Shown: positions 13,721-61,811, counted from the stretch's first letter. The stretch is DNA of 64,000 nucleotides from an uncultured Planctomycetales bacterium (GCA_964571825.1 CAZNDQ010000001.1:5540-69539), one strand, 5' to 3'. Notes: generated by a model from the letters alone, not told the origin. Made by a program: numbers and translations.

Positions 13721-13737
13721 GCCGCATAGCACGACAC
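13721..13737 (-). promoter_or_regulatory. class II 17-mer GTGTCGTGCTATGCGGC
   Basis: 17/17 match. Upstream of the gene starting at 13672. Confidence 0.55.
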
Positions 13738-13849
13738 ATCGCGGCGATTAGTTCGCGCATGAACGGGTCGCGCAGGATCGTTCGCAGTTCATCGTCGCTC
13801 ATGTCCTCGCGTCGTGCTATGTTGTGGCCTGCAAAGGCCGCGCAGGGCC

Positions 13850-14173
13850 TCAAATGCTGCGACAATTGCCCAGCCTCTCCAGCTCGGCCGCCCGCACTCG
13901 CATCTCGTTCACGATCCACTGTCTCTCGCCGGCAAGTGCCGCGTCGCTGCGTTTCGGCCACTGCCGAATGCGCTCCTCGATCTGCGCGAACCGGTGCGCC
14001 ATGTCCATGCACCGCTTCGCCTTCGCCACGTCGAAGCACGGCAGCCGTGGCTCACTGAACCGGCGCGCCTGCACCGTGGCGCGCTCGGCAAGCTGCCGCG
14101 CGCTCATTGCGATCTGGCGCCAACCGAGCACGGATGGCGTCGGGCTGCTGTCGGGTGCGGCGGTCATAGGCAT
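13850..14173 (-). CDS. hypothetical protein
   Basis: High GC3 frame. The second ATG (14167) forms an ATGA overlap with a 33-aa upstream ORF. Confidence 0.45.
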   Translation of the reverse strand: MPMTAAPDSSPTPSVLGWRQIAMSARQLAERATVQARRFSEPRLPCFDVAKAKRCMDMAHRFAQIEERIRQWPKRSDAALAGERQWIVNEMRVRAAELERLGNCRSI

Positions 14174-14265
14174 GCCTCGGATCCGCTGCCGCTGCAGTCA
14201 CCGGTATGCGACAGGTGCGCCGGCACGAGCAGGTGGAGCGTCACGGTGTCGTTGTGGTCACACAT
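14164..14265 (-). CDS. possible 33-aa ORF (MCDHNDTVTLHLLVPAHLSHTGDCSGSGSEACL)
   Basis: GGTGAGG SD 5 nt upstream and a stop overlapping the next start. Below the ORF-track size cut-off. Confidence 0.3.
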   Translation of the reverse strand: MCDHNDTVTLHLLVPAHLSHTGDCSGSGSEACL

Positions 14266-14267
14266 CG

Positions 14268-15200
14268 CTACCTCACCAGCGGCAACCGCCGCGCCCAGTT
14301 CAGATCCAGATAGGCACCCTCGGCGCCATCACGAAACCCGACATGCCGATGCGACCCGCTCCGCTGCCACACCGCCCACGCTGGCCAGTACGCGGGCCAC
14401 GACGGCTCGTCCGCCGCGGTGTAGTGCGCCACCCATGGCGAGAACCGCTCCAGCCATTGCGGCCTGCCAAGCGTCACGTAGTGCGACGGCGACATGTACA
14501 CGAGGCAGTCGCCGTACTCGGTGGCGAGCACGTCGGCGATGCGCTCGCCCTTCGCGTTGTGCGCCGCGGCGTCAACGGGACCATCGGCGCCGCTGTCGTT
14601 GTACTCAAGATCCAGCGCCGGTACGATGTCGCCGGCTGCGATGTGCGCAAGGTCCATCTGCGCCTGGAACGACGCGAGTTGCGCATCGACGCTCTGTTGC
14701 TGCCGAAAGAACATGTACGCACCGACACGCAGCCCAGCGGCGCGCGCGTCGGCGATGTGTCGGGCGAAGTGGCGATCTGCCGACGTCCCGTAACACGCCC
14801 GCGCGATGCAGAACGCGTAGTCGCGCGCGAGCAGATCCCAGCGCAACAGCGACGGCGGCTGATGGTGCGAGATGTCGATGCCGGCAACGTCGTTCAATTC
14901 GGCTGAACTTTCGTGCGCGGCGGGCCCCGATATTCCAGATGGAATATTTTCATTCCGTTCGGAATAATTCACGTCAGCATCGTTGCCGTCAGGCGCGAAC
15001 CCTCGCTCAAAGTGCCATGCGATGACGGCGCGGTCTGTACCCTCGCCGTGGATGCCGTCAGCGCCGCCGCTCCCTGCGACCATGCGCGCCGGCTCGCCGC
15101 CCCACCGCAGCAGGTAGCGTTGCAGCACGGCGACGTCGGTGCCACGGTCGCCGCGCCTCGTGATACGCGGTGGTGTTTCGGCGTGGGCAGGGTTGGTCAT
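14268..15200 (-). CDS. endolysin: peptidoglycan-binding domain plus GH25 muramidase
   Basis: GDRGTDVAVLQRYL matches PG_binding_1-type repeats. GIDISHHQ...DLEYN matches GH25. ATGA overlap with the upstream gene. Confidence 0.8.
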   Translation of the reverse strand: MTNPAHAETPPRITRRGDRGTDVAVLQRYLLRWGGEPARMVAGSGGADGIHGEGTDRAVIAWHFERGFAPDGNDADVNYSERNENIPSGISGPAAHESSAELNDVAGIDISHHQPPSLLRWDLLARDYAFCIARACYGTSADRHFARHIADARAAGLRVGAYMFFRQQQSVDAQLASFQAQMDLAHIAAGDIVPALDLEYNDSGADGPVDAAAHNAKGERIADVLATEYGDCLVYMSPSHYVTLGRPQWLERFSPWVAHYTAADEPSWPAYWPAWAVWQRSGSHRHVGFRDGAEGAYLDLNWARRLPLVR

Positions 15201-16504
15201 GCTGCGTCTCCTGGGAAGAGCGACGCCTGCGCTTCGGGCTCCCACGCTACAATGCGTGCCTGTGCGATGGCGGCATAGTCCTCGTCTTGCTCAATGCCGA
15301 TGAACGAGAAGCCCTCCAGCTTCGCGGCTATGCCCGTGGTACCGCTGCCGCAGAATGGATCGAGGATCGTGCCGCCCGGTGGCGTGATGAGGCGGGCGAG
15401 CCAGGACATAAGAGACAACGGCTTGACGGTGCTGTGTTTGTTGGCGCGCCCGCTGCGCTCGTCGCGCGGTAGCTCTGCACAGCCACGCTCCCGTTCGCGC
15501 GTGGACGCTTTGGCGCAGTAGTAGAAGCGTGAGGCGCCACCGGTGTCACGGAAGCCGGGAAGCACAACCGACGACGACGACGACGACGACGACGACGCAT
15601 ATCCCATGCCGCGACCAGTGGTAGCGCCACGATTTAGTGTGCCGCCGGCAAATCCTGGACGCTCCCCACTCTGCTCGTCCAGCTCAGCGGCGGCGACCTC
15701 ATCCAACACCACATTCGCCGGCCATCGCCCGCCGGGGTGACACGTGATGCCCTCGCCCGGTGGCGCCGCGATCTTCTCCGTATCGGGCTGCGCAGTGTTG
15801 CCGCTGCGCTTCCACGATTCGGGTCGGTCCGGCTCGTTCCAGTCCGTCGCAATGCGGCACGCGTCGATGTTGATCGCGCCGGTGCCATGGGCGAGGACGT
15901 TGGCGGCAATGGTCTTCTCGGCGAGCGGCTTGCGACACAGCCACCAATCCTCTGCCGCGGGCTTCAGTGCAGTTCCCCACCCGGACCATTGTTGCGCCTC
16001 GGCACTGGATGGCGCAGTGACAGCTACGGCGATCGGTGGCGCAGTGCCCACGCCCACGCCGTAGCTGCCGCCCTTGTCCTTGCACGACACCGCGGCATTG
16101 CCGCCGAGTTTGCGCGACCCTACGACGCGCGGCTTTTCGCCGAGGTGCTTGTCAATCGCCTTAGGCACTGACAGGCTCTTCGGAAATCCTGAACCGAACA
16201 AATGCGTCACGCGATCTCTCACCTCAAAGCCGGAGTTCTCCAACGCCATGCCGGTCCAGTGCGAAGTGCGCGGCAGTGCCCACACCAGCGCGTGACCTCC
16301 CGGTTTCAGCACGCGCAGCGCCTCGCGCATCACCTCGGTGAGCCATGCAATCCACCGGTCGCGACCCCCCTTGTCGCTGTCCCACGACTCACACATGAAC
16401 GAGATGCCTGCCGGCGGATCTGTCACCACAGCATCAACGCTGCAGTCCGGCATGCCGCGCATCACCTCGATGCAGTCTCCAACGATGACGCGTTGCTCAC
16501 TCAT
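15197..16504 (-). CDS. DNA methyltransferase (β-class N4/N6, motif IV before motif I)
   Basis: VVTDPPAG near the N-terminus and ILDPFCGSGTTG near the C-terminus. Contains a 9-Ser run. Confidence 0.85.
   Translation of the reverse strand: MSEQRVIVGDCIEVMRGMPDCSVDAVVTDPPAGISFMCESWDSDKGGRDRWIAWLTEVMREALRVLKPGGHALVWALPRTSHWTGMALENSGFEVRDRVTHLFGSGFPKSLSVPKAIDKHLGEKPRVVGSRKLGGNAAVSCKDKGGSYGVGVGTAPPIAVAVTAPSSAEAQQWSGWGTALKPAAEDWWLCRKPLAEKTIAANVLAHGTGAINIDACRIATDWNEPDRPESWKRSGNTAQPDTEKIAAPPGEGITCHPGGRWPANVVLDEVAAAELDEQSGERPGFAGGTLNRGATTGRGMGYASSSSSSSSSVVLPGFRDTGGASRFYYCAKASTRERERGCAELPRDERSGRANKHSTVKPLSLMSWLARLITPPGGTILDPFCGSGTTGIAAKLEGFSFIGIEQDEDYAAIAQARIVAWEPEAQASLFPGDAA
15569..15597 (-). repeat. 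(TCG)9 trinucleotide repeat encoding Ser9 inside the methyltransferase
   Basis: Nine perfect CGA units on the + strand, read directly. Confidence 0.95.
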
Positions 16505-16511: not shown

Positions 16512-16528
16512 GCCGCATAGCACGACAC
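16512..16528 (-). promoter_or_regulatory. class II 17-mer GTGTCGTGCTATGCGGC
   Basis: 17/17 match. ATG of the methyltransferase (16504) lies 9 nt after TATGCG. Confidence 0.6.
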
Positions 16529-16529: not shown

Positions 16530-17486
16530 TCACCCAGCCAAGCCCCGGAACAGCGACGGCTGCGCCGGCTCATTGTTGCATGCTGGCGAGAACCAGATCA
16601 CCTCCAGCTCAGTCGTCTTGCTGCCCGAGTACGTGTGCCGGCCGCGAGACCAGCGATACTCGGACCACCCCGGCATGTCGTGCTCGCCTTGGTGCCCACA
16701 CAGCGCAACGCGCAGGTTCTCGTTTGCGCGACACCACTCCGCGACGGCCCCGGCGACGCTGCCGGAGCCGTAGACGCCTTCGAAGCCGTCATAGGGCGGG
16801 TCCATGAAGCACGCGGTGTCGTCGCCGCCGTAGTGGTGATTCAGGCAGCGCGACCAGTCGCCGTGAATGACGCGGACGCGCTCTAGCCGGTCGGCGAGTT
16901 GTCGCAACCAGCGCAGCGCAACACGCCCCGACGATGTGAGCATCTCCGGATCGCCCCTCCCGGCGTTGCCGCTGTGGGGGACTTGGCCGATGGCTTGGAC
17001 GCCCCTCCCGGCGTCGCTGCTGTGGGGGACTTGGCCGATGGCTTGGACGCCCCTGCCGGCGTCGCTGCTGTGGGGGACTTGGCCGAACCAATCGCACCAC
17101 CCCGATCCGATCCACGCGCACTGCCCCCATAGCCACCAGCCAGCGACCTTGGCGTCACCTGGCCAGTCCGGGTCCTGCAGCTCAGCGCCGAGTCGTTCGC
17201 GCTGTTGCATGAGCCAGCCATGGCGCGCGCCCATGTCGATGTGACTCACAGGGTAGTCGGCCCACTCTGCGACCGCGTCGGGCTGGTGCTTCGTGCACCG
17301 CCAAAAATTGGCGACCATGCCGTTGAGATCGCCGATAACTTCCAGCGACGCGGGCCGCGGCGCACCGAGCAGGACGGCTGCGCTGCCGCAGAACGGTTCG
17401 ATGTATTGCTTTGGCGAACCGAAGCGCCGCCACACCTCGTCGACGACTGCGCTTTTTCCGCCGAAGTACGGCCAGGGAGCCTTCAT
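16530..17486 (-). CDS. D12-class (Dam-like) N6-adenine DNA methyltransferase with internal 16-aa repeats
   Basis: PYFGGK near the N-terminus and DPPY later. GQVPHSSDAGRGVQAI repeated about 2.8 times. Confidence 0.8.
   Translation of the reverse strand: MKAPWPYFGGKSAVVDEVWRRFGSPKQYIEPFCGSAAVLLGAPRPASLEVIGDLNGMVANFWRCTKHQPDAVAEWADYPVSHIDMGARHGWLMQQRERLGAELQDPDWPGDAKVAGWWLWGQCAWIGSGWCDWFGQVPHSSDAGRGVQAIGQVPHSSDAGRGVQAIGQVPHSGNAGRGDPEMLTSSGRVALRWLRQLADRLERVRVIHGDWSRCLNHHYGGDDTACFMDPPYDGFEGVYGSGSVAGAVAEWCRANENLRVALCGHQGEHDMPGWSEYRWSRGRHTYSGSKTTELEVIWFSPACNNEPAQPSLFRGLAG
16953..17089 (-). repeat. 48-nt tandem repeat, about 2.85 copies, in frame
   Basis: Copies at 16953..17000, 17001..17048 and 17049..17089, with 2-3 substitutions. 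Confidence 0.9.
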
Positions 17487-17490: not shown

Positions 17491-17507
17491 GCCGCATAGC
17501 ACGACAC
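17491..17507 (-). promoter_or_regulatory. class II 17-mer GTGTCGTGCTATGCGGC
   Basis: 17/17 match. ATG at 17486 lies 6 nt after TATGCG, with no SD. Confidence 0.6.
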
Positions 17508-17508: not shown

Positions 17509-18810
17509 CTAGCCCACCAGCTCCACACCATCCGCAGCGAGCCGCGCGATCAGCTCCGCCACCTCGTCCATCCCACCGTCGCCAAGCGCACCGGGTTTAC
17601 CCTCGGGCCACATGATGTACCCGGGCACACGTGGCGCACCGCTATCAGGCGGCTCGTCCGCGGCGACAGGCGGCGCAACAGCGCGGTCGTGACACCACGG
17701 CGGGAGCGACACGTAGCCCAGCAGCGCTGGGTCGCTCGCCGGTCGCTCCGTGATGCGCCACGACGTGCCCTCGTTGGCCCCGATGGTCCGCTCGCCCGAC
17801 GTGTCGGCATCGATGACGCGGCACCCGTGACGCTGCCACGCCTCGGTGCCGCGCTTGCTGATGCGCCAGTCGCCTGGGCGCGGGATGTACCCGTGCGCGC
17901 GTGTACGCCACAGACCGAGGCGCTGCGCGTCCTGCTGCATCTCCAGCCCGCTAACACGGTACGCGTGCGGCAACGTCTCGCCCGGCAGCAACGCCATACG
18001 CCCCGCGAAGCACCCGCCAGCAACGCACCAGTCACCCGACGTGAGGCCGAGCTTCGTCTCGCGACCTCCGATGACGCGCGTGGCCGGCGCGAAGTACTCC
18101 GCGATGCGCGGTCCAGTGTTGTGGCCGCGCGTCTCGAGGTTCCCGCGTGCCAGCTCAGCGTACGACGCTTCGATGCACCGCTCCGCGTAGCTGCGCGCCG
18201 GGTCCTGCCATGGGTCTGTGGGCGGCATGTCGGTCGCGTCGTCAGCGGGTCGCATCAGCACCAGCGTCATGCTGTAATCCACATGATTCTCACCGTGCGA
18301 CGTGTCGGTGCTGCGCTGGACGATCTGTGCCGTCGTCTCGTTGGACTCGGCCGGATGCGTAGGGAGACCCCAGTCGACGCCACGCGGAACGTGCCACCCG
18401 TACAGGTAGCGCACCGCGAGCCCCGCAGGCGTGGCGCACCAGTGCTTGCCCACGTTGCCGACGACACCCGGAGCGGCGACGCCGCGATCGGTGAGCGCCG
18501 CTGCGATGTCGGCGTCGATGGCAGCGCTGTGCTTGGCGCCGTCATCGTTGGCTCGCGCCGCCGGTTTGCCTGATGACGCAGCAAGCCACAGCTGTTGTGT
18601 GTGCGGCCGGTTCTTCAGCCACGCCGATTCCCACCGCGCATCAAGCACGTTCGGCACCGGCAGCAGCGCGCCTAGCCTGTGCGCCCACTCCTCAGCGTCG
18701 GCATACGACACGTTGATGCGCTTACCGTCGATGCGCAGGGCATCGCGTGACACGTCCCAGCGCGAGCCGTTGCGCAGCGTGATGGTCGCCCAGTCGTGTT
18801 GCGCGGTCAC
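17509..18810 (-). CDS. putative cell-wall hydrolase (NlpC/P60- or CHAP-like central domain)
   Basis: GHNTGPRIAEYF...WCVAGGCF...PRPGDW...HGCRV pattern. GTG at 18810 after GGAGGA, with a GTGA overlap. Confidence 0.5.
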   Translation of the reverse strand: MTAQHDWATITLRNGSRWDVSRDALRIDGKRINVSYADAEEWAHRLGALLPVPNVLDARWESAWLKNRPHTQQLWLAASSGKPAARANDDGAKHSAAIDADIAAALTDRGVAAPGVVGNVGKHWCATPAGLAVRYLYGWHVPRGVDWGLPTHPAESNETTAQIVQRSTDTSHGENHVDYSMTLVLMRPADDATDMPPTDPWQDPARSYAERCIEASYAELARGNLETRGHNTGPRIAEYFAPATRVIGGRETKLGLTSGDWCVAGGCFAGRMALLPGETLPHAYRVSGLEMQQDAQRLGLWRTRAHGYIPRPGDWRISKRGTEAWQRHGCRVIDADTSGERTIGANEGTSWRITERPASDPALLGYVSLPPWCHDRAVAPPVAADEPPDSGAPRVPGYIMWPEGKPGALGDGGMDEVAELIARLAADGVELVG

Positions 18811-19402: not shown

Positions 19403-19419
19403 GCCGCATAGCACGACAC
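19403..19419 (-). promoter_or_regulatory. class II 17-mer GTGTCGTGCTATGCGGC
   Basis: 17/17 match. ATG of uORF MRWMR (19398) lies 6 nt after TATGCG. Confidence 0.6.
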
Positions 19420-19462: not shown

Positions 19463-19515
19463 AGAAATAGAAAACGCCGCCACCCGGCCCGGGAGGGACA
19501 AGCCAGGTGGCGGCG
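19463..19515 (-). terminator. Rho-independent terminator
   Basis: 10-bp stem CGCCGCCACC/GGTGGCGGCG followed by TTTTCTATTTCT on the minus strand. Confidence 0.65.
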
Positions 19516-19576
19516 CAAGTTGCAGCCGCGACGATGCGCGGCGAAGGCCCAGGCGCGGCCCGGACTCCAGTGTAAT

Positions 19577-21316: not shown

Positions 21317-21333
21317 GCCGCATAGCACGACAC
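21317..21333 (-). promoter_or_regulatory. class II 17-mer GTGTCGTGCTATGCGGC
   Basis: 17/17 match with leaderless spacing to the ATG at 21312. Confidence 0.6.
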
Positions 21334-21340: not shown

Positions 21341-21640
21341 CTACTGCGCTGGCGGAACGGCGGGCTTCGTAGCGCGCAGGTTCAGCAGCGCGAACGCCAC
21401 GGTCAGCCCAGCGACCAGCGACTCCATCCACGGCCGACCAGCAATTAGCAGCGGTGCAGCGGTACCGGCCGCGCCGATGAGCGCGCCGCGCAACGTGGGC
21501 AGCATGGCCCGCCACTGCTCGGCGAGCGGCACGCCGTCCTGGTACTTCGCGGCGATCCACGTGACCAGCACGAGGACCGAGCCGACCATTGGGCCGAGCA
21601 TGCCAGAGGTGAGTGCGTTTGCGATTGTCTGCTCGTCCAT
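21341..21640 (-). CDS. membrane protein, holin candidate
   Basis: Three hydrophobic spans. Follows the XhlA-like gene after the fibre genes. Confidence 0.4.
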   Translation of the reverse strand: MDEQTIANALTSGMLGPMVGSVLVLVTWIAAKYQDGVPLAEQWRAMLPTLRGALIGAAGTAAPLLIAGRPWMESLVAGLTVAFALLNLRATKPAVPPAQ

Positions 21641-25071: not shown

Positions 25072-25087
25072 TCGTGTAGCACGACGA
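25072..25087 (-). promoter_or_regulatory. weak class II variant (GTCGTCGTGCTACACG)
   Basis: Shares TCGTGCTA. About 45 nt upstream of the ATG at 25025. Confidence 0.25.
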
Positions 25088-25090
25088 CCA

Positions 25091-43653: not shown

Positions 43654-43826
43654 TCGCCCACCGTGTCCGCAGCAAGCCGTGCGTCAAGCGCAGCAACGCG
43701 GCACCATGACGACAGGCTGGAATGCACCAGGTCGGATCGCAGGTGCGCGTCCGCGATTGCCATGGTTCCGATCGTGCTCAGCGCAAGCACAATCGAACCG
43801 AAGAACCACGAGTCGTTGAGTTCCAT
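43650..43826 (-). CDS. small single-TM protein
   Basis: ATG at 43826 lies 7 nt after the TATGCG of a class II motif. ATGA overlap downstream. Confidence 0.4.
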   Translation of the reverse strand: MELNDSWFFGSIVLALSTIGTMAIADAHLRSDLVHSSLSSWCRVAALDARLAADTVGE

Positions 43827-43831: not shown

Positions 43832-43848
43832 GCCGCATAGCACGACAC
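43832..43848 (-). promoter_or_regulatory. class II 17-mer GTGTCGTGCTATGCGGC
   Basis: 17/17 match. Confidence 0.6.
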
Positions 43849-44709: not shown

Positions 44710-44726
44710 GCCACATAGCACGACGC
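44710..44726 (-). promoter_or_regulatory. class II variant GCGTCGTGCTATGTGGC (15/17)
   Basis: Two substitutions, same orientation and context. Confidence 0.5.
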
Positions 44727-46194: not shown

Positions 46195-46321
46195 CACTGC
46201 CCTCCCAGGCGATGGTGAGATGTGTCCCGCCGCGCTAGCTAGGCGCATTGGCTTTCGGCGACCCGTGGCTACCCATTGAGTCGCTCATGCGGGCCGGACC
46301 AGCCCGGGTAGTTGTGTTGCG

Positions 46322-47846: not shown

Positions 47847-48932
47847 CTAGGCCGAGCTGCGAACGCTCAGCACGAAGCTGTTGTCGGCGAGGCCGAACGC
47901 GTGATCGGCGAGCCAGATCACCTTCGCGGTTTCGCCGTAGTTGTCGTCGGTCGACGCGGCGACGCGCGGCGCGCGACCCATGCCGGCGAGCAGCGCTCCG
48001 GGGGCGATCAGGTGACCGCGGTGCACGTTCACCGAGGAGCTGTTCGCCGGAGCGTTCAGCGTGGTCGCCTTGAACACGTGCATCTTGCTGATGCTGCCCA
48101 CGTAGGACGGGAACACGGCGTTGTACTGCGGATGCGCCTTGCCCCACTCGATGCCGTCCGAGTCGCCCTTGAGCTGACGCAGCTGCGTCGGGCTGAGCAC
48201 GAGCATGCGGAAGCCGTCGCCGAGCGTCGGCAGGTTCGCGTCGTCGGCCTGTTGCTCCGCTCTGAAGATCTGCTCCAGCGTCAGCGGGAACGATCCGACC
48301 GTGGTCGCATCGTTGTCAGCGCTCATGCCATCGGGGTAGACGGTGGTCGACGCGAGGTCGAGCAGCGCCACGTTCACGATGTCGAGGAACCGATCGTAGT
48401 CACGCCGCAGCTGGCTGCCGACGATCTTGCTTGCCTTGTGCACACCCATGTTGGCGTCGAACGCCTCGATTCCCATCGGGGCGACGCGGCTGTTCGCGCT
48501 GTCGTACGGGCCACCGTAGCGGAACAGCGTGAGGCTGGTCTGCTGCGCGGTCGGCTCGATCGCCGTGGTGCTGATCGAGGTGCCCGTCGCAATGCGGCGC
48601 GCGCTCTCGGTCGCCGTGGTGTTCTCGTATACCGGGCGATTGATGCGCACCGTGTTGCCGGGCGCCGCGTTGAAGTCGACCGTCGCGGCGATGATCTCGC
48701 TCGACAGCGGGCCGCTCAGCATCAGGCGATCCTGCTCGGCCGCGGCGTAGTCAGCGCCGACGCCGCCGACGCTGCGACCGGGGAGGCCCAGCTCCTCGGG
48801 GGTGTCGAGCGACGCCATCAGTGCCGACTTGAACAGCTGCGCGTAGAGGTACTGCGGCTCGGGCGCCGCAAGCAGCATGTCGCTGGTCTTGTCGTAGAAG
48901 CCCTCGGGCATCGAAACGCGGGAGTAAGACAT
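47847..48932 (-). CDS. major capsid protein
   Basis: 361 aa, after the scaffold-like gene. AAGGA SD. Size and position typical of HK97-fold MCPs. Confidence 0.65.
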   Translation of the reverse strand: MSYSRVSMPEGFYDKTSDMLLAAPEPQYLYAQLFKSALMASLDTPEELGLPGRSVGGVGADYAAAEQDRLMLSGPLSSEIIAATVDFNAAPGNTVRINRPVYENTTATESARRIATGTSISTTAIEPTAQQTSLTLFRYGGPYDSANSRVAPMGIEAFDANMGVHKASKIVGSQLRRDYDRFLDIVNVALLDLASTTVYPDGMSADNDATTVGSFPLTLEQIFRAEQQADDANLPTLGDGFRMLVLSPTQLRQLKGDSDGIEWGKAHPQYNAVFPSYVGSISKMHVFKATTLNAPANSSSVNVHRGHLIAPGALLAGMGRAPRVAASTDDNYGETAKVIWLADHAFGLADNSFVLSVRSSA

Positions 48933-50160: not shown

Positions 50161-51297
50161 CTATGCAGCGGCTCGCGCCGCGTCGTTCTGTGCCGCCAGC
50201 CCACGCATGTATGCGAGGTTGTCCGCCATGCGCTGGCGATGCTCTGCGGGAATGCTTGGGTGCGTGGCGAGCGGTGCGTAGATACGCAGCGCCTCGTCAA
50301 TGCGCCCGAGGTTCGTCAGCGCGCCGCACAGTTCCTCGGCGGCGCGGTAGTGGTAGACGCTGCCGTACACAGGCAACGAGTCGGTGGGTCGCCTCAGTCG
50401 ACACGCAGCGCGTGCCCACACCTCGGCGAGGGCGTGTCGCCCTGCGTTGGCGTGCAGCACCGCAATGGCCCAGCACGGCTCGGCTCGCGTCGGGCGGGCC
50501 TCATAGGCGCGCTCGTAGGCGGCAATGACCTCGGCGTCGTCGCGGCCGAGAAACTCCAACAGGCGCGCCGTCTCGTAGTGCGAGTGGAAGACCTCTTCGT
50601 CGAAGCCGCCCTCCATCTGCACGCGCCGCGCAAACGCATGCAGCGCCGCGTCGTACTGCTGCGCGCCGGCAAGCGCCTGCGCGAGGTAGTACCAGTGTCG
50701 CGGGTTGTGCGGGTCGTCGGCGATCTCAGCACGCAACAACTCGGCGTAGCGCGCACACTTCGCCTTATCGTCCTCCGACGAGTGACCGTCGGCGTGGTTG
50801 CGCAGCCGGAAGCCCTCGACGATGCGGTGCGGACCGTCCTGTCCCGGGCACGCCACGACCTCGTGGATGCGACCGACGTAGCGCCACGGAAGGTCCAGCC
50901 TGATCAGCGTCAGCCGATACCAGCGTTGATCTTCCATCTCCAGCGGGATGGCGTACGCCGCCTCGGTCAGCTCAGGCAGCGTTGCGCCGTCGTCTGCCTC
51001 CAGCACCTCGTCGGCGTCGATGCACAGCGCGTAGTCGGCGCCCATGTCGCGCGCCATCGTCAGCGCGCGGTTGCGTGCCGAGCTGAAGTCGCGAAACTCC
51101 ACCTCGGCAAGCTCGCCGGGCATGTCAGCCATCATCTCGCGGACGATGTCCTGCGTGCCGTCGGTGCTGCCCGTGTCCACGATCGCCCAGTGCGTCACGT
51201 GTGGCAGCACCGAATCGAGACAGCGCGCAATGACACGCGCCTCGTTGCGCACGATGAGACACGCGCAGACGCGCGGTGACGTGTTCCCTCCCGTCAC
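50161..51297 (-). CDS. GT2-family glycosyltransferase with C-terminal TPR-like repeats (paralogue B)
   Basis: CACLIVRNEARVIARCL..IVDTGSTDGT..DADE. WYYLAQALAG repeats. Confidence 0.75.
   Translation of the reverse strand: MTGGNTSPRVCACLIVRNEARVIARCLDSVLPHVTHWAIVDTGSTDGTQDIVREMMADMPGELAEVEFRDFSSARNRALTMARDMGADYALCIDADEVLEADDGATLPELTEAAYAIPLEMEDQRWYRLTLIRLDLPWRYVGRIHEVVACPGQDGPHRIVEGFRLRNHADGHSSEDDKAKCARYAELLRAEIADDPHNPRHWYYLAQALAGAQQYDAALHAFARRVQMEGGFDEEVFHSHYETARLLEFLGRDDAEVIAAYERAYEARPTRAEPCWAIAVLHANAGRHALAEVWARAACRLRRPTDSLPVYGSVYHYRAAEELCGALTNLGRIDEALRIYAPLATHPSIPAEHRQRMADNLAYMRGLAAQNDAARAAA
51112..51201. repeat. 90-bp segment identical to 45847..45936
   Basis: Direct repeat, same orientation, 5.26 kb apart. 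Confidence 0.9.
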
Positions 51298-54780: not shown

Positions 54781-56121
54781 CTACATGTCGGCGATGACGG
54801 TCTTGGTTGCGATGGGTGCGTTGGCGGCGCGTAACGCCATGGCCAGCGCCCAGAATGAATCAGCGTGTCCCTCGCTGGTCCGCGGCGCCTCATACGAGAC
54901 GTTGCCGGCCTGCGTGACGACGCGCTTGATGGAGCACACGTCGCGGAACAGCTGCTCGTTGTCGCGAGGCATTCGGATCATGTCCGACGCGAACAGCGAG
55001 TGCGCGCGCGTCGCCATGTCCTCTTTGCTCTGCAGGGTGAAGCTCACGGGCTCGACGCTCATCTCGCCGTACGCCGCTTGCGCCTCGGAGGCAGGGAACG
55101 CACCCAACCCGGTCGCGTCGATGCACATGCGCTCCACACCGAACGGCGGCGCGAAGGCGCGCGCCACGAGCATCTGAATGTCGCCGAGCTGCGTGCGCTT
55201 GCAGGTGGCAGTGTGGACCACGTGGTAGCGCCCGTCGTGGTTGCGTCGCACGATGGCCAGCTCTGTCCGATCAACCTCTTTGCCGATGTCGAGCCCAGCC
55301 CAGCACGGTCCGTGCGGGATGTACGTCGAATCGATGCGGGCCGCTTCGACCAGGTGCGTCGGGATGTACTGCTGCTCGTTGTCTAGGAATGAGCAGCAGA
55401 ACAGCTGGTTGAAGACGCGCTCGTCGCCGCGCGCCAGCCTCCAGCAGTCGGCGATGTCGACTGGCATGCCATCGGCGATGGCGTCGTCCAGCGTTACGGC
55501 GTGGCGCGAGTACCCTTCGTTCTGCTTCGGGTCACTCCACAGCTCGTAGAACAGACCCGCCGCGCCGTTGGGCGTCGACAACCCGCGGATGCGGTAGCCG
55601 TGCAGCGCGGTGCCCGCCGCGCCGTCCCACACCTCGTAGGGCCGGTCGTAGTACGCCAGCTCGTCCAGGATGACGTTGCCGCTAAACGAGCGGCCCGCCG
55701 ACGTGTTGGGCAGCGACAGAATGCGCCCGCCATCGCCGCGGCCGTTGCCGCGCATGATGAGCTTGGTCGCACTGTTGTGCAGCGGGACGGCCCATCGCGA
55801 GCCAAGCTCGGCGAGCGCCGATGCGTGCAGCTTCGACTTGGCGAGGACCTCGTCGGCCTCGCGCTGCCCCAGCGAGATGACGGTCGTCGTCTCGCCGAAC
55901 AGCCCCCACAGCACCGCGGCACCCGCGATGGTGTGGCTGATCCCGATCTGTCGCGACTTGAGCGCGAGCATGAACCGCGACCAATCGAGTATCCACTCGA
56001 GCTGGAAGCGGTAGAACGTGTGCAGCCACGCGTCTACCGCGGCGAACTCACGCGACGGTAGCGCCTCGCGCAATCCGTCGTAGGTCCGCTGGGCGTCAGC
56101 GCTGAGAGTCGGCAGCGCCAT
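54781..56121 (-). CDS. terL: terminase large subunit
   Basis: Walker A-like KSRQIGIS and Walker B-like VILDELA, followed by a nuclease-half pattern. Position fits. Confidence 0.8.
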   Translation of the reverse strand: MALPTLSADAQRTYDGLREALPSREFAAVDAWLHTFYRFQLEWILDWSRFMLALKSRQIGISHTIAGAAVLWGLFGETTTVISLGQREADEVLAKSKLHASALAELGSRWAVPLHNSATKLIMRGNGRGDGGRILSLPNTSAGRSFSGNVILDELAYYDRPYEVWDGAAGTALHGYRIRGLSTPNGAAGLFYELWSDPKQNEGYSRHAVTLDDAIADGMPVDIADCWRLARGDERVFNQLFCCSFLDNEQQYIPTHLVEAARIDSTYIPHGPCWAGLDIGKEVDRTELAIVRRNHDGRYHVVHTATCKRTQLGDIQMLVARAFAPPFGVERMCIDATGLGAFPASEAQAAYGEMSVEPVSFTLQSKEDMATRAHSLFASDMIRMPRDNEQLFRDVCSIKRVVTQAGNVSYEAPRTSEGHADSFWALAMALRAANAPIATKTVIADM

Positions 56122-57843: not shown

Positions 57844-58257
57844 TTACTTCACCAAAAGATGCTTAACGGCGCGGGCCAGGGCGCGCTGTCTTGCGTCGAT
57901 TGTGTCAATGAGTTCGTATATCTCCTCAACGCAGTCTCGCACCTCGCCGACAATATTCGCCGCTTCGTCTAGAAGAGACGCACGGCGAAGAGCATCTCGT
58001 GTTGTCCAGCACCTGCCGCCACCGGCGACCCCGCTCCGGCGAAGCCCGCCTCCGAAAACCAAACGCTGCCCCGTTTGCTGCTCAGCGCGGCGCAGTCGGC
58101 GCTTGGCTCTGCGCATCGTGGTCGGCGTCGGTTCGCCATCTGCCCCGAGCCATTTGCCGCCCGGGTCAACGTCGGCTAACAGCCGGCACACGTCGGCCAT
58201 GGTCAGCTGTTGGGCCAACTGCGCCCTGGCGCGCTGCGGCACCGGGCGCGGCTTCAT
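57844..58257 (-). CDS. hypothetical DNA-binding protein
   Basis: LTMADVCRLL HTH-like start and a C-terminal coiled segment. Last gene before the 660-bp non-coding region. Confidence 0.4.
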   Translation of the reverse strand: MKPRPVPQRARAQLAQQLTMADVCRLLADVDPGGKWLGADGEPTPTTMRRAKRRLRRAEQQTGQRLVFGGGLRRSGVAGGGRCWTTRDALRRASLLDEAANIVGEVRDCVEEIYELIDTIDARQRALARAVKHLLVK

Positions 58258-58958
58258 TCGTCACCACCCGTAGCTCGCTCAGCATGCTCGCGCAGCGACG
58301 ACAGCGGCGTGACGGCATCGTCGCTCAGTCCCAGTGCCTCCATCCACGCCTCTGCTCTCAGGTCAGCGTCGACCGGATCGCCAAGCAGCTCGCTCAGCAG
58401 CAGCTCGCTCCGTCGCCGCCCCTGCGCCCTGGCGCGGTCCCTCTCGGCACGGGCCGCAGCGCGATCGTCTCGGCGAATGTCCTGCCACGACAAGTGCGCC
58501 TCGGTCAGGATCCGCACGGCGCGCGCAACCTCACCGGCGCCCTCGCGCTCGGCCCACCGCAATGTCTTGCCGTTGTCGCGGAGAATGCGCCGCACAATGT
58601 TGGCCGCGATCCCGTAGTTGCTCGCCAGCGCTGGGCCGTCGTCTTCGGTGTTCGGGTGTCGCAACTCGTAGCTGATGCACAGCGCCGACTGGTGACGCTT
58701 CTGCAGCTTGCGAAACGATGCGAGCAGCCACCGCTGCCGAGACGCCGCGTTGACTTGGCGCGGCGTGAGCGTTGCCGCGCTGATCCAACCGGGCTCCAGC
58801 CACGCCGCGAGCGGATCGGTTGCCGGAATGCCCACCGCGCCGCCTCCGCCCGACATGGCCACGTCGAGTTGATGTCCCATCGCCGACGAGTAGCCAAGCT
58901 CGGCCGCGGAGTCCCAGAACAGCCACGCCAGGTCAAGGTCAGGATTGATCGCGCTCAT
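58254..58958 (-). CDS. hypothetical protein with sigma region-4-like HTH
   Basis: ATG at 58958 (ATGA overlap). The ALASNYGIAANIVRRILRDNG segment is HTH-like. Confidence 0.4.
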   Translation of the reverse strand: MSAINPDLDLAWLFWDSAAELGYSSAMGHQLDVAMSGGGGAVGIPATDPLAAWLEPGWISAATLTPRQVNAASRQRWLLASFRKLQKRHQSALCISYELRHPNTEDDGPALASNYGIAANIVRRILRDNGKTLRWAEREGAGEVARAVRILTEAHLSWQDIRRDDRAAARAERDRARAQGRRRSELLLSELLGDPVDADLRAEAWMEALGLSDDAVTPLSSLREHAERATGGDE

Positions 58959-59573: not shown

Positions 59574-59590
59574 GCCGCATAGCACGACAC
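59574..59590 (-). promoter_or_regulatory. class II 17-mer GTGTCGTGCTATGCGGC
   Basis: 17/17 match with leaderless spacing. Confidence 0.6.
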
Positions 59591-59617: not shown

Positions 59618-59653
59618 AAAAGAAAAAGCCCGACCGCCTCGCGACGATCGGGC
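59618..59653 (-). terminator. Rho-independent terminator closing the Y-RNA cluster
   Basis: GCCCGATCG-TCGCGAGG-CGGTCGGGC followed by TTTTTCTTTT. Confidence 0.7.
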
Positions 59654-59672
59654 CGAACTACCATGGTGTCAG

Positions 59673-59796: not shown

Positions 59797-59843
59797 CGGT
59801 GTTCCCGGCTTGAATTGCACCAGCGTTACCGGCGTGAAAGGCG

Positions 59844-59894: not shown

Positions 59895-59929
59895 TGAACG
59901 GTGTCCTGCTCACTAGACGACGGGAACAG

Positions 59930-59992
59930 ATGTCGGGCAAGTTGGTGCGGCAGGGGAACATACCAGATAACCCTACCACTTCGGCCCGACAT
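59930..59992 (-). ncRNA. Y-RNA-like module 1 (compact, canonical topology)
   Basis: Termini pair as ATGTCGGGC/GCCCGACAT, with bulged C/G, AAGT/ACTT, GGTAGGG/CCCTGCC and loop TTATCTGGTATGTTC. The 5' end coincides with the predicted TSS. Confidence 0.65.
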
Positions 59993-59997
59993 GGAAA

Positions 59998-60015
59998 CTC
60001 TATAGCACACCACAC
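59998..60015 (-). promoter_or_regulatory. class II-related promoter of the Y-RNA cluster (GTGTGGTGTGCTATAGAG)
   Basis: TGC-TATAGA extended -10. 6 nt to the A that starts the Y-RNA terminal helix. Confidence 0.55.
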
Positions 60016-60035
60016 GCGTCGCAGTATTGGCAGCC

Positions 60036-61787
60036 CTACGCGGCTGACGAATCTTCTGTGAGGCCACACGCGAACTCAGACAGGAGCTGCGGCGTGGCCG
60101 TGTCGAACCCGGCGACGTCGATCATGCCGGCGTCGCTCGGGTCTGCGATCGTGAACTCGGTCGCTTCCATTGCGACCACCGCGAGCTTAGCGTCGATGCC
60201 CATCTGCTGGCGGTACTGCTTCAGCGCGACGTGGGCATGCAAGTCGCCCTGCCACGTCTCGTTGTCAGTGTAGATGTGAAACACATCGACCGGCACCTTG
60301 TGCTCCATGGCCCACATCATCGGCAGGGCGCAGTCCGTGCCACCCATCGGGATCTGAGCGATCCGCTGCATCGCGTCGCCGATCCTCATGCGCGGCGAAA
60401 TGTCGACCGTGCTGATACCCGACCGCAGCGAGCTGTTGTGACCGTAGGCGCGGTACCCGGCGCTCGCCCACTGCCCGGTGCAACGCGGATGCGACCAACC
60501 CGCGTCAGCGCTGGAGAACGCCACCACGCCGCAGTTCGGCTCCACGGCCAGCGCAACCATCGCCATCGCGGTCGCAGCCTCGCGACACGAGACGAAGTCG
60601 ATCCCGGCGACCGGCGCGCCCATCGATCCTGACACGTCCAGCGCCAGCAGGTGCCGCTTGCCGGTCTTCGGCACGGCACCGAACGCCGCGTAGAACGCCG
60701 CGTCCAACGCGTCGGTGACCTGCGACACGGGCCCCCACGTCAGCGAGCCCTTCACGCCACAGCCGCGCGCGTACACCTTCTGCGCCGCCATCAGCGCGAT
60801 CGGGTGCATCCGGGCGCGGCGCAGTCGCTCGACATCGCCGAGCCGCTCCGCAACGGTGCGCGACGCATCGGACAGCGGCGCGATCAGCCCGACGCTCGTC
60901 ATCTTGCCGAGGTTGCGGATCATAGCCGTCATGGGCATGCCGACGAGTAGCGCCTCCCACACCTCACGGTGCGCAAGCAGCTCAGTCGGCACCATCTCGC
61001 GCGCGAGTCCGCGCTCCACAATGAGCTTCGCCGCTGCTTTGGGATCGGTCGCCAGCGTCTTGCACTCCTCGTACGCGGCGATCAGGTCGGGCAGGTGCCG
61101 CTTCAGTGCGCCCTGTTCCTCCACCGCGTCGCGGCGCTTCACGATGCGCTTGCCCATGCCGTCGCTGCCAGCCACGGCCCACCGAAGCGCGGCCTCGGCC
61201 GGTAGCTCCAGGTTGTCCGCGAGATGGCACAGGCGCAGCACGTCGCGATGCGACCAGCCGTTGCGCTGTTGGTACTTCACGAGCTGCAGCGCCAGCTGGT
61301 CGCCCGTCTTCGCCGCGTACCACTTGCCGACACCACGCCGCAGGCCGCGACCCCACCCGCGCAGCTCGTTGACGATCGCGACAAACTCGAACAGGTGCGT
61401 CCCGATGCGGCACACGTCGGGTAAGGCATCCAGCGCAGCACGGCGCGCCTCGGGCGACTCCGACGCTGCGCAGATGGCCAACGCGAAGATCGCCGGGCTG
61501 TTCTTTGGCGCGTTGCCGGCTTGACTCACCTCGGCGATCGTCCGCACGGTGCGCAGTGGATCGGCGACTACGCAGCGACGGACGGCGGCGGCGTTGTCCA
61601 GCGTGAGGGCGCGCTCCTTGACGTAGTAGGTGCCGCCCTCGCTGCCGAGGATCAGGAAGCGCTGCAACCGCGCCCAGTCGTCCACGACGAAGCTGTAGCC
61701 GCCCGCGTTGTTCTCCTGCTGCAACGGGGACACCGCCTCGGACTGCGGCGTGTGGATCGGGTTGAGTGCCGTGGTGTAGATGCTCAT
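60036..61787 (-). CDS. rsr: Ro60 / Rsr orthologue (TROVE plus vWA domains)
   Basis: NNAGGYSFVVDDWARLQRFLILGSEGGTYY (TROVE N-terminus) and C-terminal MIDAS LALDVSGSM. ATG at 61787 after the motif. The longer ORF upstream is not supported. Confidence 0.88.
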   Translation of the reverse strand: MSIYTTALNPIHTPQSEAVSPLQQENNAGGYSFVVDDWARLQRFLILGSEGGTYYVKERALTLDNAAAVRRCVVADPLRTVRTIAEVSQAGNAPKNSPAIFALAICAASESPEARRAALDALPDVCRIGTHLFEFVAIVNELRGWGRGLRRGVGKWYAAKTGDQLALQLVKYQQRNGWSHRDVLRLCHLADNLELPAEAALRWAVAGSDGMGKRIVKRRDAVEEQGALKRHLPDLIAAYEECKTLATDPKAAAKLIVERGLAREMVPTELLAHREVWEALLVGMPMTAMIRNLGKMTSVGLIAPLSDASRTVAERLGDVERLRRARMHPIALMAAQKVYARGCGVKGSLTWGPVSQVTDALDAAFYAAFGAVPKTGKRHLLALDVSGSMGAPVAGIDFVSCREAATAMAMVALAVEPNCGVVAFSSADAGWSHPRCTGQWASAGYRAYGHNSSLRSGISTVDISPRMRIGDAMQRIAQIPMGGTDCALPMMWAMEHKVPVDVFHIYTDNETWQGDLHAHVALKQYRQQMGIDAKLAVVAMEATEFTIADPSDAGMIDVAGFDTATPQLLSEFACGLTEDSSAA

Positions 61788-61794
61788 GACTTGG

Positions 61795-61811
61795 TCCTCA
61801 TAGCACGACAC
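61795..61811 (-). promoter_or_regulatory. class II variant GTGTCGTGCTATGAGGA (13/17)
   Basis: First 13 nt identical. The 3' end reads GAGGA (SD-like). ATG at 61787. Confidence 0.55.

What the first reader, a model, noticed from the sequence alone, without database searches (positions are those of the whole stretch)
13721..61811. Dispersed 17-mer GTGTCGTGCTATGCGGC marking accessory genes: probable extended -10 promoter giving leaderless transcripts
**Copies on the minus strand.**
- Exact copies at 13721, 16512, 17491, 19403, 21317, 43832 and 59574.
- Close variants at 44710 (15/17), 61795 (13/17) and 59998 (the Y-RNA promoter).
- Weaker variants at 25072 (-), 10067 (+) and 27886 (+).

**Orientation and spacing.** Every copy is co-oriented with the gene immediately downstream. 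Read as TGC-TATGCG (TGn plus a -10 hexamer), the start ATG lies exactly 6 nt after the hexamer at 17486, 19398, 21312 and 59569. It lies 7-9 nt after at 43826, 16504, 44702 and 61787. None of these has a Shine-Dalgarno sequence.

**Independent support for the TSS.** At the Y-RNA locus the same +7 position is the A that begins the terminal helix ATGTCGGGC/GCCCGACAT. That agrees with the predicted transcription start.

**What it precedes.** The motif precedes only accessory cargo: both DNA methyltransferases, secreted Cys-rich proteins, small membrane proteins, Rsr and the Y RNAs. It never precedes core structural genes. No conserved -35 is visible, so a phage-specific factor is possible.

**Alternatives.** The sites could be repressor sites of the stoperator type, or start-associated sequences as described in mycobacteriophages.
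Basis: partly seen in the sequence, partly recalled or inferred. Interest (0 to 1): 0.75.

Follow-up and report, generated by a model that had tools for sequence, protein, structure and literature searches.

The report
Repeated phage promoter-like 17-mer
An uncharacterised temperate phage carries about a dozen copies of one short DNA signal that most likely acts as a self-contained promoter, restarting transcription just before add-on genes and at operon heads; this is a known kind of phage signal in a new sequence form.

Summary
The core observation holds. GTGTCGTGCTATGCGGC occurs 7 times exactly and twice with 2 mismatches. All nine copies are on the minus strand, lie between genes and point the same way as the next gene; shuffles gave none. 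I found four diverged copies sharing the invariant GTGCTA: 60014-59998, 25088-25072, 10067-10083(+) and 13809-13825(+).

Best reading (about 0.6) is a -35-independent, extended -10 type promoter module (TGC + TATGCG).
- Three canonical promoters in the same window place ATG 6 nt after their -10 hexamer, the same spacing as the 17-mer.
- Two copies follow strong intrinsic terminators.
- One diverged copy precedes non-coding Y RNA.
- Three copies precede Shine-Dalgarno-led genes, so the signal tracks transcript 5' ends, not start codons.

- ATG 19398 opens a 5-codon ORF; the real start, 19384, has an SD.
- The gene after 13721 starts at 13672 with an SD.
- 61795 matches 15/17, not 13/17.
- 27886 is not a copy.
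- The units these copies head also contain the endolysin and packaging genes.

The hexamer lacks the canonical T at -7, and exact 17-nt identity is odd for a host-sigma promoter, so a dedicated factor is possible. No relative in any collection carries the motif. Nothing here is experimentally tested.

The parts
13721..13737 (-). Exact 17-mer. The next real gene starts at ATG 13672 behind GGAGGAG, giving a predicted leader of about 45 nt.
16512..16528 (-). Exact 17-mer, 1 nt after the TGA stop of the D12 methylase gene. ATG 16504 of the N6_N4 methylase lies 9 nt after TATGCG with no SD. The GH25 endolysin gene follows in the same unit.
17491..17507 (-). Exact 17-mer, 1 nt after the TAG stop of gene 17509-18810. 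ATG 17486 of the D12 methylase lies 6 nt after TATGCG with no SD.
19403..19419 (-). Exact 17-mer downstream of the strong terminator 19516-19474. The predicted start at A19398 would give a 14-nt leader carrying GAGGTGG, followed by ATG 19384 of a Cys-rich secreted protein.
21317..21333 (-). Exact 17-mer, 7 nt after the TAG stop of gene 21341-21640. ATG 21312 lies 6 nt after TATGCG and opens a 117-aa CxxC protein. A weak terminator follows at 20941-20924.
43832..43848 (-). Exact 17-mer after the O-methyltransferase gene. ATG 43826 lies 7 nt after TATGCG and opens a 58-62 aa membrane protein.
44710..44726 (-). Copy with 2 mismatches (GCGTCGTGCTATGTGGC) after the glycosyltransferase gene. ATG 44702 lies 9 nt after the hexamer and opens a 58-aa membrane protein.
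59574..59590 (-). Exact 17-mer, 36 nt after the stem of terminator 59654-59627. ATG 59569 lies 6 nt after TATGCG. It heads a minus-strand unit, and the scan found no strong terminator between it and the terminase genes.
61795..61811 (-). Copy with 2 mismatches (GTGTCGTGCTATGAGGA), 1 nt after a TGA stop. ATG 61787 of Rsr/Ro60 lies 9 nt after the hexamer.
59998..60014 (-). Diverged copy TGTGGTGTGCTATAGAG. Its TATAGA lies 6 nt before A59992; the Rfam Y-RNA-like match begins at 59993.
25072..25088 (-). Diverged copy GTCGTCGTGCTACACGA, followed by the conserved CCTCAAA hairpin and then ATG 25025.
10067..10083 (+). Diverged plus-strand copy GTGTCGTGCTACCTGCA, just after the GC-rich hairpin 10021-10052. 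It is co-oriented with a plus-strand gene whose ATG 10103 follows GAGG.
13809..13825 (+). Diverged plus-strand copy GCGTCGTGCTATGTTGT, whose hexamer TATGTT has the canonical T at -7. It is divergent from the 13721 copy, is followed by the CCTCAAA hairpin and has no plus-strand ORF. It is a possible antisense or small RNA start.
19474..19516 (-). Intrinsic-terminator-like hairpin (18 pairs, then TTTCTATTTC) immediately upstream of copy 19403.
59627..59654 (-). Intrinsic-terminator-like hairpin (12 pairs, then TTTTTCTTTT) ending the rsr and Y-RNA unit, immediately upstream of copy 59574.

Best explanation
The 17-mer is a self-contained promoter module that does not need a -35 element. Numbering TATGCG as -12 to -7, the conserved block spans -21 to -5: GTGTCG (-21 to -16), TGC (the 'TGn' of extended -10 promoters, -15 to -13), TATGCG, then GC. 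RNA polymerase would open the DNA at the TAT and start 7-10 nt after the hexamer.

- In four copies the predicted start is the A of the start codon, giving a leaderless mRNA.
- In three copies the start is within 0-4 nt of the ATG.
- In three copies a short leader with its own Shine-Dalgarno sequence follows.
- In one copy the 5' helix of a Y RNA follows.

The copies restart transcription inside the long minus-strand gene array. They act after terminators (19403, 59574) and in front of inserted add-on genes: two DNA methylases, Rsr with its Y RNAs, small secreted and membrane proteins.

**Shown:** the sequence anatomy, positions, spacing and terminators. **Inferred:** that transcription starts there, and where. 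**Open:** which form of polymerase reads the module. It could be the host housekeeping holoenzyme alone, a holoenzyme remodelled by a phage protein, or an alternative or phage-encoded sigma.
For: 1. **Non-random copies.** Seven exact copies, two near-exact and four diverged; none expected by chance; all intergenic and co-oriented with the next gene.
2. **Matching geometry in the same genome.** The window holds three canonical promoters that put ATG exactly 6 nt after the -10 hexamer: TTGACA-17-CATACT-ctggac-ATG at 7272, and similar ones at 8587 and 9172. The 17-mer has the same spacing at 17486, 21312, 59569 and 19398.
3. **Extended -10 features.** TG lies at -15/-14, with T at -12 and A at -11. 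No -35 hexamer is conserved in the aligned flanks.
4. **Terminators upstream.** Strong terminator-like hairpins sit directly upstream of copies 19403 and 59574, so the genes behind them need a new start.
5. **A copy before non-coding RNA.** A diverged copy lies at the right distance before the Y-RNA helix. A translation signal would have no role there.
6. **Copies before SD-led genes.** Copies at 13721, 19403 and 10067(+) are followed by leaders with their own SD. The motif therefore tracks a transcript 5' end, not a start codon.
7. **TSS-like context.** The base before the predicted start is C, and the start is A, in 6 of the 8 copies with a nearby ATG and in the Y-RNA copy.
8. **Moron-like setting.**
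   - Gene 21312-20959 has the motif in front and a weak terminator behind.
   - rsr, the Y RNAs and gene 59569-58955 found no match in the fetched loci of relatives L029/L030. The neighbouring gene 58254-58958 is conserved there.
9. **Precedents in the literature.**
   - Phage P23-45 middle and late promoters are extended -10 class without -35 (PMC3950348).
   - Predicted leaderless SigA-like promoters occur in Cluster O mycobacteriophages (PMC4351075).
   - Repeated 46-47 bp promoter-containing motifs occur in phage Adephagia (PMC11373665).
Against: - No hexamer in the exact 17-mer has both A at position 2 and T at position 6. TATGCG has G at -7, and 10 of the 13 copies have G there. From established structural work on sigma-70 region 2, T at -7 is one of the two most important -10 bases.
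- Seven copies are identical over 17 nt, whereas the three canonical promoters in this genome differ from one another. That looks more like the site of a very specific protein, or a recently copied module.
- Pfam and PHROG scans found no sigma, RNA polymerase or sigma-binding protein in the window. About 31 kb of the source contig lies outside the window.
- The motif could not be checked for conservation. No relative in the viral, genome or metagenome collections carries it.
- The host is unknown.
- Y RNAs can also be made by processing of an rsr co-transcript.
- There are no transcript data.
Confidence: 0.6

Rival explanations
1. The motif is a binding site for a phage regulator, as with the stoperators of Cluster A mycobacteriophages. 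A repressor bound to an asymmetric site between genes would block polymerase arriving from upstream, or switch the downstream genes on or off. The motif would not itself be the promoter.
For: - The motif is asymmetric, 17 nt long and exactly conserved.
- It lies in very short intergenic gaps, three times only 1 nt after a stop codon, and always in one orientation relative to transcription.
- These are the published hallmarks of stoperators (PMC9283540, PMC6550527; contrast drawn in PMC3203893).
- The phage is temperate: it has an integrase at 3015-4046 and an Xre-type HTH protein at 6647-7015.
Against: - No copy overlaps the early plus-strand promoters or lies near the HTH gene, where an operator would be expected.
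- There are only about 13 sites, and most keep a fixed spacing of 6-9 nt to a start codon or RNA 5' end. A roadblock does not need that spacing.
- The core that is invariant in all 13 copies is the promoter-like GTGCTA, not the 5' half.
- Copies directly after terminators have nothing to block.
- An Xre-type HTH usually binds palindromes, and the window has a better candidate operator: the 22-bp palindrome near 4200.
Confidence: 0.15
2. The motif is an RNA-level signal on read-through transcripts. It could be a start-associated sequence that helps ribosomes begin without a Shine-Dalgarno sequence, or a cleavage site for a specific ribonuclease that trims polycistronic RNA to leaderless mRNAs.
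For: - In seven genuine gene starts the motif ends 4-7 nt before the ATG, and every associated start codon is ATG. SAS elements lie typically 3-7 bp before start codons, which are mostly ATG (PMC3203893).
- Most genes here lack an SD: only 35 of 92 starts have one.
- An ATG inside the motif opens a 4-5 codon mini-ORF. In 7 of 9 copies it ends in a TGA overlapping the next ATG.
Against: - The motif has no SD-like core, unlike SAS.
- Copies precede a non-coding RNA and three genes that carry their own SD further downstream.
- Hairpins between the motif and the start codon are weak, -3.5 to -8 kcal/mol, with z-scores of -0.4 to -2.1.
- The mini-ORF pattern follows from the 6- or 9-nt spacing. In addition, 42% of the other genes in this window have A after the start codon.
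- Two copies follow strong terminators, so little read-through RNA would exist there.
Confidence: 0.08
3. The motif is a recombination junction or a copy-paste scar. Identical direct repeats would flank add-on gene cassettes because the cassettes were gained or swapped by recombination at that sequence, with no expression role needed.
For: - The D12 methylase gene is exactly bracketed by two identical copies (17507 and 16528).
- The small membrane-protein and O-methyltransferase genes are bracketed by 44726 and 43848.
- A gene flanked by a 17-bp direct repeat is described in phage Corndog (PMC4351075).
Against: - The similarity stops sharply at the motif edges and no flanking homology exists.
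- The diverged copies keep the -10-like core.
- The spacing to start codons is constrained.
- No cassette 3' signal is shared.
- This reading is compatible with the motif also being a promoter.
Confidence: 0.05

Closest known systems
Extended -10 (TGn) promoters without a -35 element, as used for middle and late genes of Thermus phage P23-45
   Same: - TG lies one base upstream of a TA-starting hexamer.
- No conserved -35 element is present.
- A second, canonical -35/-10 promoter class coexists in the same phage (here TTGACA-17-CATACT on the plus strand).
- Conservation reaches into the spacer (-16 to -21), the region said to approach the beta' zipper and Zn finger on such promoters (PMC3950348).
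   Different: - The 3' half of the hexamer is GCG and there is no T at -7.
- Seven copies are identical over 17 nt.
- No gp39-like factor was identified.
- The host is unknown.
- Nothing has been tested biochemically.
Leaderless-mRNA promoters of actinobacteria and their phages (for example Cluster O mycobacteriophage PL1, PR2 and PL2)
   Same: The hexamer is followed by 6 nt and then the A of the ATG, so the predicted +1 is the first base of the start codon (PMC4351075). The same arrangement occurs at the three canonical promoters of this window.
   Different: - Those promoters have recognisable SigA-type -35 and -10 hexamers and differ from each other.
- In this window only about half of the copies fit a strictly leaderless start.
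ESAS / SAS repeats of Cluster K mycobacteriophages
   Same: - Short conserved asymmetric repeats, 11-19 per genome, in one orientation.
- They lie a few bp upstream of ATG start codons of non-structural genes (PMC3203893).
- The longer ESAS was later read as a repeated promoter-containing motif (PMC11373665).
   Different: - SAS contains the AGGAG Shine-Dalgarno core and is thought to act in translation. The 17-mer has no such core and also precedes a non-coding RNA.
- ESAS has -35 and -10 hexamers and a 15-17 bp inverted repeat. The 17-mer has neither a -35 element nor dyad symmetry.
Stoperators of Cluster A mycobacteriophages
   Same: Asymmetric sites of 13-17 bp, many per genome, in short intergenic gaps or overlapping stop and start codons, oriented with transcription (PMC9283540, PMC6550527).
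   Different: - Stoperators are spread over both genome arms, and one doubles as the operator of the early lytic promoter.
- In this window there is no copy at the early promoters. There is also a fixed distance to start codons and a promoter-like core.
Morons (promoter-gene-terminator insertions in phage late operons)
   Same: - Add-on genes sit between conserved genes.
- The motif lies in front of them, and terminator-like hairpins lie behind gene 21312-20959 and behind the rsr and Y-RNA unit.
   Different: Morons normally each bring their own, unrelated promoter. Here one identical module serves many unrelated genes.

Membership tests
Extended -10 sigma-70-type promoter | TG at -15/-14, one base upstream of the -10 hexamer | tested here: met
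   GTGC-TAT is present in all 13 copies; GTGCTA is invariant.
Extended -10 sigma-70-type promoter | -10 hexamer with A at -11 and T at -7 | tested here: not met
   A-11 is present in all copies. Position -7 is G in 10 of 13, A in the Y-RNA copy and T only at 13809(+).
Extended -10 sigma-70-type promoter | No requirement for a -35 hexamer | tested here: met
   The aligned upstream flanks show no conserved hexamer. There is only a weak (T/A)G(G/T) tendency 10-12 nt upstream of the motif, not significant after multiple testing.
Extended -10 sigma-70-type promoter | Transcription starts 6-9 nt downstream of the hexamer | not testable with these tools
   This needs 5'-end mapping. The only indirect pointers are the C/A context at -1/+1 and the 5' helix of the Y RNA.
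Leaderless mRNA | Start codon at, or within a few nt of, the transcript 5' end | tested here: inconclusive
   The spacing fits at 17486, 21312, 59569 and 43826. It is borderline (9 nt) at 16504, 44702 and 61787. It does not fit at 13672, 19384 or 10103.
Leaderless mRNA | No Shine-Dalgarno sequence before the start codon | tested here: inconclusive
   An SD is absent at seven starts. One is present at 13672 (GGAGGAG), 19384 (GAGGTGG) and 10103 (GAGG).
Stoperator (Cluster A type repressor site) | Asymmetric site, oriented with transcription, in short intergenic gaps | tested here: met
Stoperator (Cluster A type repressor site) | A copy overlaps the early lytic promoter as its operator, and sites are spread across both arms | tested here: not met
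   No copy lies at the promoters of 7272, 8587 or 9172, or near the HTH gene. One diverged copy on the plus-strand arm (10067) precedes gene 10103.
Stoperator (Cluster A type repressor site) | Bound by the phage immunity repressor | not testable with these tools
   This needs EMSA or ChIP.
Start-associated sequence (Cluster K SAS) | Lies 3-9 bp upstream of translation start codons, mostly ATG | tested here: inconclusive
   The motif ends 4-7 nt before an ATG at seven genuine starts. It also precedes a Y RNA, a 5-codon ORF and three SD-led genes.
Start-associated sequence (Cluster K SAS) | Contains the Shine-Dalgarno core AGGAG | tested here: not met
   GTGTCGTGCTATGCGGC has no purine-rich SD-like stretch.
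Moron | An add-on gene with its own promoter and terminator, inserted between conserved phage genes | tested here: inconclusive
   Terminator-like hairpins lie behind 21312-20959 and behind the rsr and Y-RNA unit. These genes found no match in the fetched loci of relatives L029/L030. Synteny is known for only part of the genome.

The most novel reading that the evidence does not exclude
The 17-mer is not read by the ordinary host holoenzyme. It would be the recognition site of a dedicated phage-directed transcription machine: a phage sigma-like or sigma-remodelling protein, possibly encoded in the roughly 31 kb of the contig outside the window. Such a machine would tolerate G at -7 and need no -35 element. 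It would define a private promoter class that launches leaderless mRNAs and Y RNA. Being a portable 17-25 bp module, the motif could also serve as the junction at which add-on genes are gained and swapped.
Probability: 0.2. Interest if true: 0.6.

Novelty: new member of a known kind. Interest (0 to 1): 0.35.

Why it matters
If transcription does start at these sites, this phage shows a compact way to express add-on genes: one 17-nt module, no -35 element and often no leader. It is placed in front of methylases, an Ro60/Y-RNA unit and small envelope proteins, and at operon restarts after terminators.

The contrast with the canonical -35/-10 leaderless promoters of the opposite arm suggests two promoter classes that could be switched against each other, as in Thermus phage P23-45.

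A -10 element ending in G rather than T would be of interest to people who study promoter recognition.

The wider impact is limited. Repeated phage-specific promoter motifs and leaderless starts are already known. The motif is found in this genome only, and the host is unknown.

Tried and rejected
1. **N-terminal coding sequence.** I asked whether the 17-mer encodes an N-terminus (GTG start, 'MSCYAA...').
   - The GTG is in frame with the gene in 5 of 9 copies: 16512, 17491, 21317, 59574 and 61795.
   - It is GCG at 44710 and out of frame at 13721, 19403 and 43832.
   - It sits 1 nt after a stop with no SD.
   - Rsr homologues align from residue 1 of the ATG-61787 protein. Rejected.
2. **Mini-ORF coupling.** The motif's internal ATG opens a mini-ORF that ends in a TGA overlapping the next ATG in 7 of 9 copies. 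This follows from the 6- or 9-nt spacing. A after the start codon occurs in 42% of other genes (0.42^7 = 0.002, and the copies are not independent). Not pursued as a mechanism.
3. **RNA hairpin pairing ATGCG with CGCAT.** The hairpins are weak and not better than shuffles. The GCAT is explained by a C(-1)/A(+1) start context.
4. **Shared half-site.** GTGTCG resembles AAATCGACAC upstream of two early promoters, but GTGTCG occurs 116 times in the window. Uninformative.
5. **Relatives carrying the motif.**
   - Searches used the exact 17-mer in viral, genome and metagenome collections, and a degenerate 16-mer in viral contigs. They gave only single, chance-level hits with no homology to the window.
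   - The closest relatives by terminase (67% and 64% identity; L029, L030) lack the motif.
6. **Source contig.** Exact look-up of the terminase found nothing.
7. **Sigma-54, ECF, sigma-28 and ops/RfaH-like consensus comparisons.** These were done by eye and gave no convincing match. A resemblance of GTGCTAT to the GGGTAT -10 of SigB/SigF-type sigmas (4/6) is a lead from memory only.
8. **Phage-encoded factor.** Pfam and PHROG scans of almost all window proteins found no sigma or polymerase.
9. **Host inference from phage-database hits.** The results are inconsistent: Rsr is closest to actinophages, terminase to Mu-like proteobacterial phages, and glycosyltransferase to an acidobacterial phage.

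Full report
**Setting.** The window has 67% G+C and is a tailed, temperate phage or prophage.

Genes identified on the plus-strand arm:
- a tyrosine integrase, 3015-4046;
- an Xre-type HTH protein, 6647-7015;
- an HNH nuclease, 7272-7631.

Genes identified on the minus-strand arm:
- a helicase-like gene, 62685-63917;
- Rsr/Ro60, 60036-61787;
- large terminase, 54781-56121;
- major head protein, 47847-48911;
- tail sheath, tape measure and baseplate genes;
- a GH25 endolysin, 14268-15200;
- two DNA methylases, 15197-16504 and 16530-17486.

My codon-usage gene calls put genes 50-10929 on the plus strand. Nearly everything from 10926 to 64000 is on the minus strand.

Rfam finds three RNA genes:
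- a Y-RNA-like RNA at 59993-59930;
- a tRNA-like element with a 64-nt insert at 59796-59673;
- a tRNA-Pro.

No known phage is close at the DNA level. The best protein matches are about 30% identical for terminase and about 47% for Rsr. The terminase is 100% identical to a protein on a 94.9-kb NCBI contig that I could not retrieve. The host is unknown.

**The observation.** GTGTCGTGCTATGCGGC occurs seven times exactly, always on the minus strand, against none in 100 shuffles. Two more copies differ at two positions, at 44710 and 61795.

- The motif supplies all the most frequent 12-mers of the window.
- All nine copies lie between genes or on a gene start, although only 11% of the window is intergenic.
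- Three copies begin one base after the stop codon of the upstream gene.

Relaxed searches and an alignment add four diverged copies that keep an invariant GTGCTA:
- 60014-59998, before the Y RNA;
- 25088-25072;
- 10067-10083 on the plus strand, which matches GTGTCGTGCTA;
- 13809-13825 on the plus strand, which matches GTCGTGCTATG.

Each of the two 11-mers is expected 0.02 times by chance. GTGCTAT alone is expected 3.6 times. The Y-RNA copy is therefore supported by its exact placement rather than by its count.

**What lies downstream.** Two assignments are wrong.

- ATG 19398 opens a five-codon ORF. The 116-residue protein with a clear signal peptide starts at ATG 19384, five bases after GAGGTGG.
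- After the 13721 copy the nearest ATG opens a 17-codon ORF. The real gene starts at ATG 13672 behind GGAGGAG.
- The plus-strand copy at 10067 is likewise followed by GAGG and ATG 10103.

The motif therefore keeps a fixed relation to something other than the start codon.

**Why a promoter is the best reading.**

1. The motif contains TG, one base, then TAT. This is the arrangement of extended -10 promoters. The aligned flanks show no conserved -35 hexamer.
2. The same genome contains three textbook promoters on the plus strand with leaderless geometry. They are TTGACA, 17 nt, CATACT, 6 nt, ATG at 7272, and close variants at 8587 and 9172. The 17-mer places TATGCG at exactly that distance from ATG in four copies. 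Whatever host this phage infects, it evidently starts transcripts on the start codon.
3. Two copies lie just downstream of strong terminator-like hairpins: 19516-19474 before copy 19403, and 59654-59627 before copy 59574. Genes behind a terminator need a new promoter. The 26-45 nt between each terminator tail and the motif hold no other candidate.
4. A diverged copy lies before the Y RNA, with TATAGA 6 nt before the A that follows the first base of the Rfam match. A translation signal would make no sense there.
5. The base before the predicted start is C, and the start itself is A, in most copies. This is the usual preference at transcription start sites and explains the recurrent GCATGA.

**What the promoters would drive.**

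- The immediately downstream genes are indeed add-ons:
  - two methylases;
  - Rsr and its Y RNAs;
  - Cys-rich secreted proteins;
  - two 58-62-residue membrane proteins inside a glycosylation block;
  - a CxxC protein that is followed by a weak terminator.
- rsr, the Y RNAs and gene 59569-58955 found no match in the fetched loci of relatives L029 and L030. The neighbouring gene 58254-58958 is conserved in those loci.
- The units do not stop at these add-on genes. Copies 19403, 17491 and 16512 lie upstream of the endolysin.
- Copy 59574 follows a terminator. No strong terminator was found between it and the terminase and head genes.
- 'Accessory only' is therefore too narrow. 'Restart points within the long minus-strand array, many of them in front of inserted genes' is closer.

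**What does not fit a plain host promoter.**

- No hexamer in the exact motif has both A at position 2 and T at position 6. The position that should be T-7 is G in 10 of 13 copies. Only 13809(+) has TATGTT.
- Seven copies are identical over 17 nt, and an upstream T is added in seven of nine. The three canonical promoters differ from each other.
- Conservation from -21 to -5 is more than sigma region 2 and 3 contacts usually impose.
- This leaves room for three possibilities:
  - a phage factor that remodels the holoenzyme, as gp39 of P23-45 does to favour extended -10 promoters (PMC3950348);
  - an alternative sigma;
  - recent copy-and-paste of a module.
- I found no candidate factor in the window.

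**Rivals.**

- **Stoperator-type repressor site.** It shares the asymmetry, orientation and tight intergenic placement (PMC9283540, PMC6550527). However, no copy sits at the early promoters. The fixed distance to 5' ends is unexplained, and copies behind terminators have nothing to block.
- **SAS-like translation signal.** It shares the position a few bases before ATG codons (PMC3203893). However, the motif lacks any Shine-Dalgarno core. It also precedes a non-coding RNA and three SD-led genes.
- **Mini-ORF and hairpin.** I noticed both within the motif, and both are explained by the spacing and by base composition.
- **Coding N-terminus.** This is excluded by frame and by the GCG variant.
- **Recombination junction.** Direct repeats bracketing the D12 methylase gene and the membrane-protein/O-methyltransferase pair make this possible as a side effect. 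It does not explain the conserved core or the spacing.

**Comparison and novelty.**

- Repeated, phage-specific promoter motifs are known. One example is the ESAS motif of Adephagia, now read as carrying SigA-like promoters (PMC11373665).
- Extended -10 promoter classes in phages are known (PMC3950348).
- Predicted leaderless promoters in phages are known (PMC4351075).
- Phage-borne Ro60 with Y RNAs is also known (PMC4201824).
- This is a new member of that kind, with an unusual G at -7 and unusual copy identity.
- The motif is private to this genome. Scans of viral, genome and metagenome collections gave only chance-level single hits. The nearest relatives lack it.
- Evolutionary conservation therefore could not be used. 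All functional statements rest on anatomy and need transcript mapping.

Noticed in passing
window 13841-13861 (+), 25056-25036 (-), 24371-24351 (-): A second conserved element occurs in three copies: GGC(A/C)GCGC(R)GNGCCTCAAA..C(Y)GCGAC. It folds into a 6-bp stem with a 9-nt loop GCCUCAAAU and has two covarying pairs. Two copies lie 10-12 nt before the start codons of adjacent tail-region genes (ATG 25025 and 24341). Two copies follow diverged 17-mer copies at a similar distance. Its function is unknown.
   Followed up: partly
window 7237-7274, 8550-8589, 9135-9174 (+): Three canonical -35/-10 promoters (TTGACA/TTGGCC/TTGCGT, 17 nt, CATACT/TATACT) have the ATG exactly 6 nt after the -10 hexamer, so the predicted mRNAs are leaderless. 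The first two also share AAATCGACAC about 50 nt upstream.
   Followed up: partly
window ~4198-4219: A perfect 22-bp AT-rich palindrome, GTGAATATTTATAAATATTCAC, lies in a 67% G+C genome between the integrase gene and gene 4224-4712. It is a candidate operator or attachment-site element.
   Followed up: no
window ~4745-4787 and ~5037-5079 (+): A repeated block of about 30 nt, CGACCGCAGCACGTGAGCTGC...AGAGGGAGA (a hairpin plus an SD), lies directly upstream of two small genes with ATG 4788 and ATG 5080.
   Followed up: no
window 59993-59673 (-): The Y-RNA locus holds three modules with the GGTTATC-type motif: a 64-nt Y-RNA-like hairpin, a middle module, and one embedded as a 64-nt insert in a tRNA-like element. 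All lie between rsr and one terminator, so they may form a single multi-module transcript.
   Followed up: partly
window 50161-51252, 44761-46197, 43862-44491 (-): Two GT2-family glycosyltransferases (one with a weak, sub-threshold TPR-like hit) and an O-methyltransferase-like gene (weak, sub-threshold Pfam hit) sit inside the virion structural module. The first glycosyltransferase is absent at the syntenic position of relative L029. Together they may be a virion glycosylation cassette.
   Followed up: partly
whole window: Only 35 of 92 predicted starts have an SD-like sequence. Many structural genes start 4-6 nt after the previous stop with no SD. This suggests a host with low Shine-Dalgarno dependence.
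   Followed up: partly
window 10021-10052: A strong GC-rich hairpin has its U-tract on the minus strand, yet it lies between two plus-strand genes (9675-10007 and 10103-10660). It may shield the plus-strand arm from antisense read-through.
   Followed up: no
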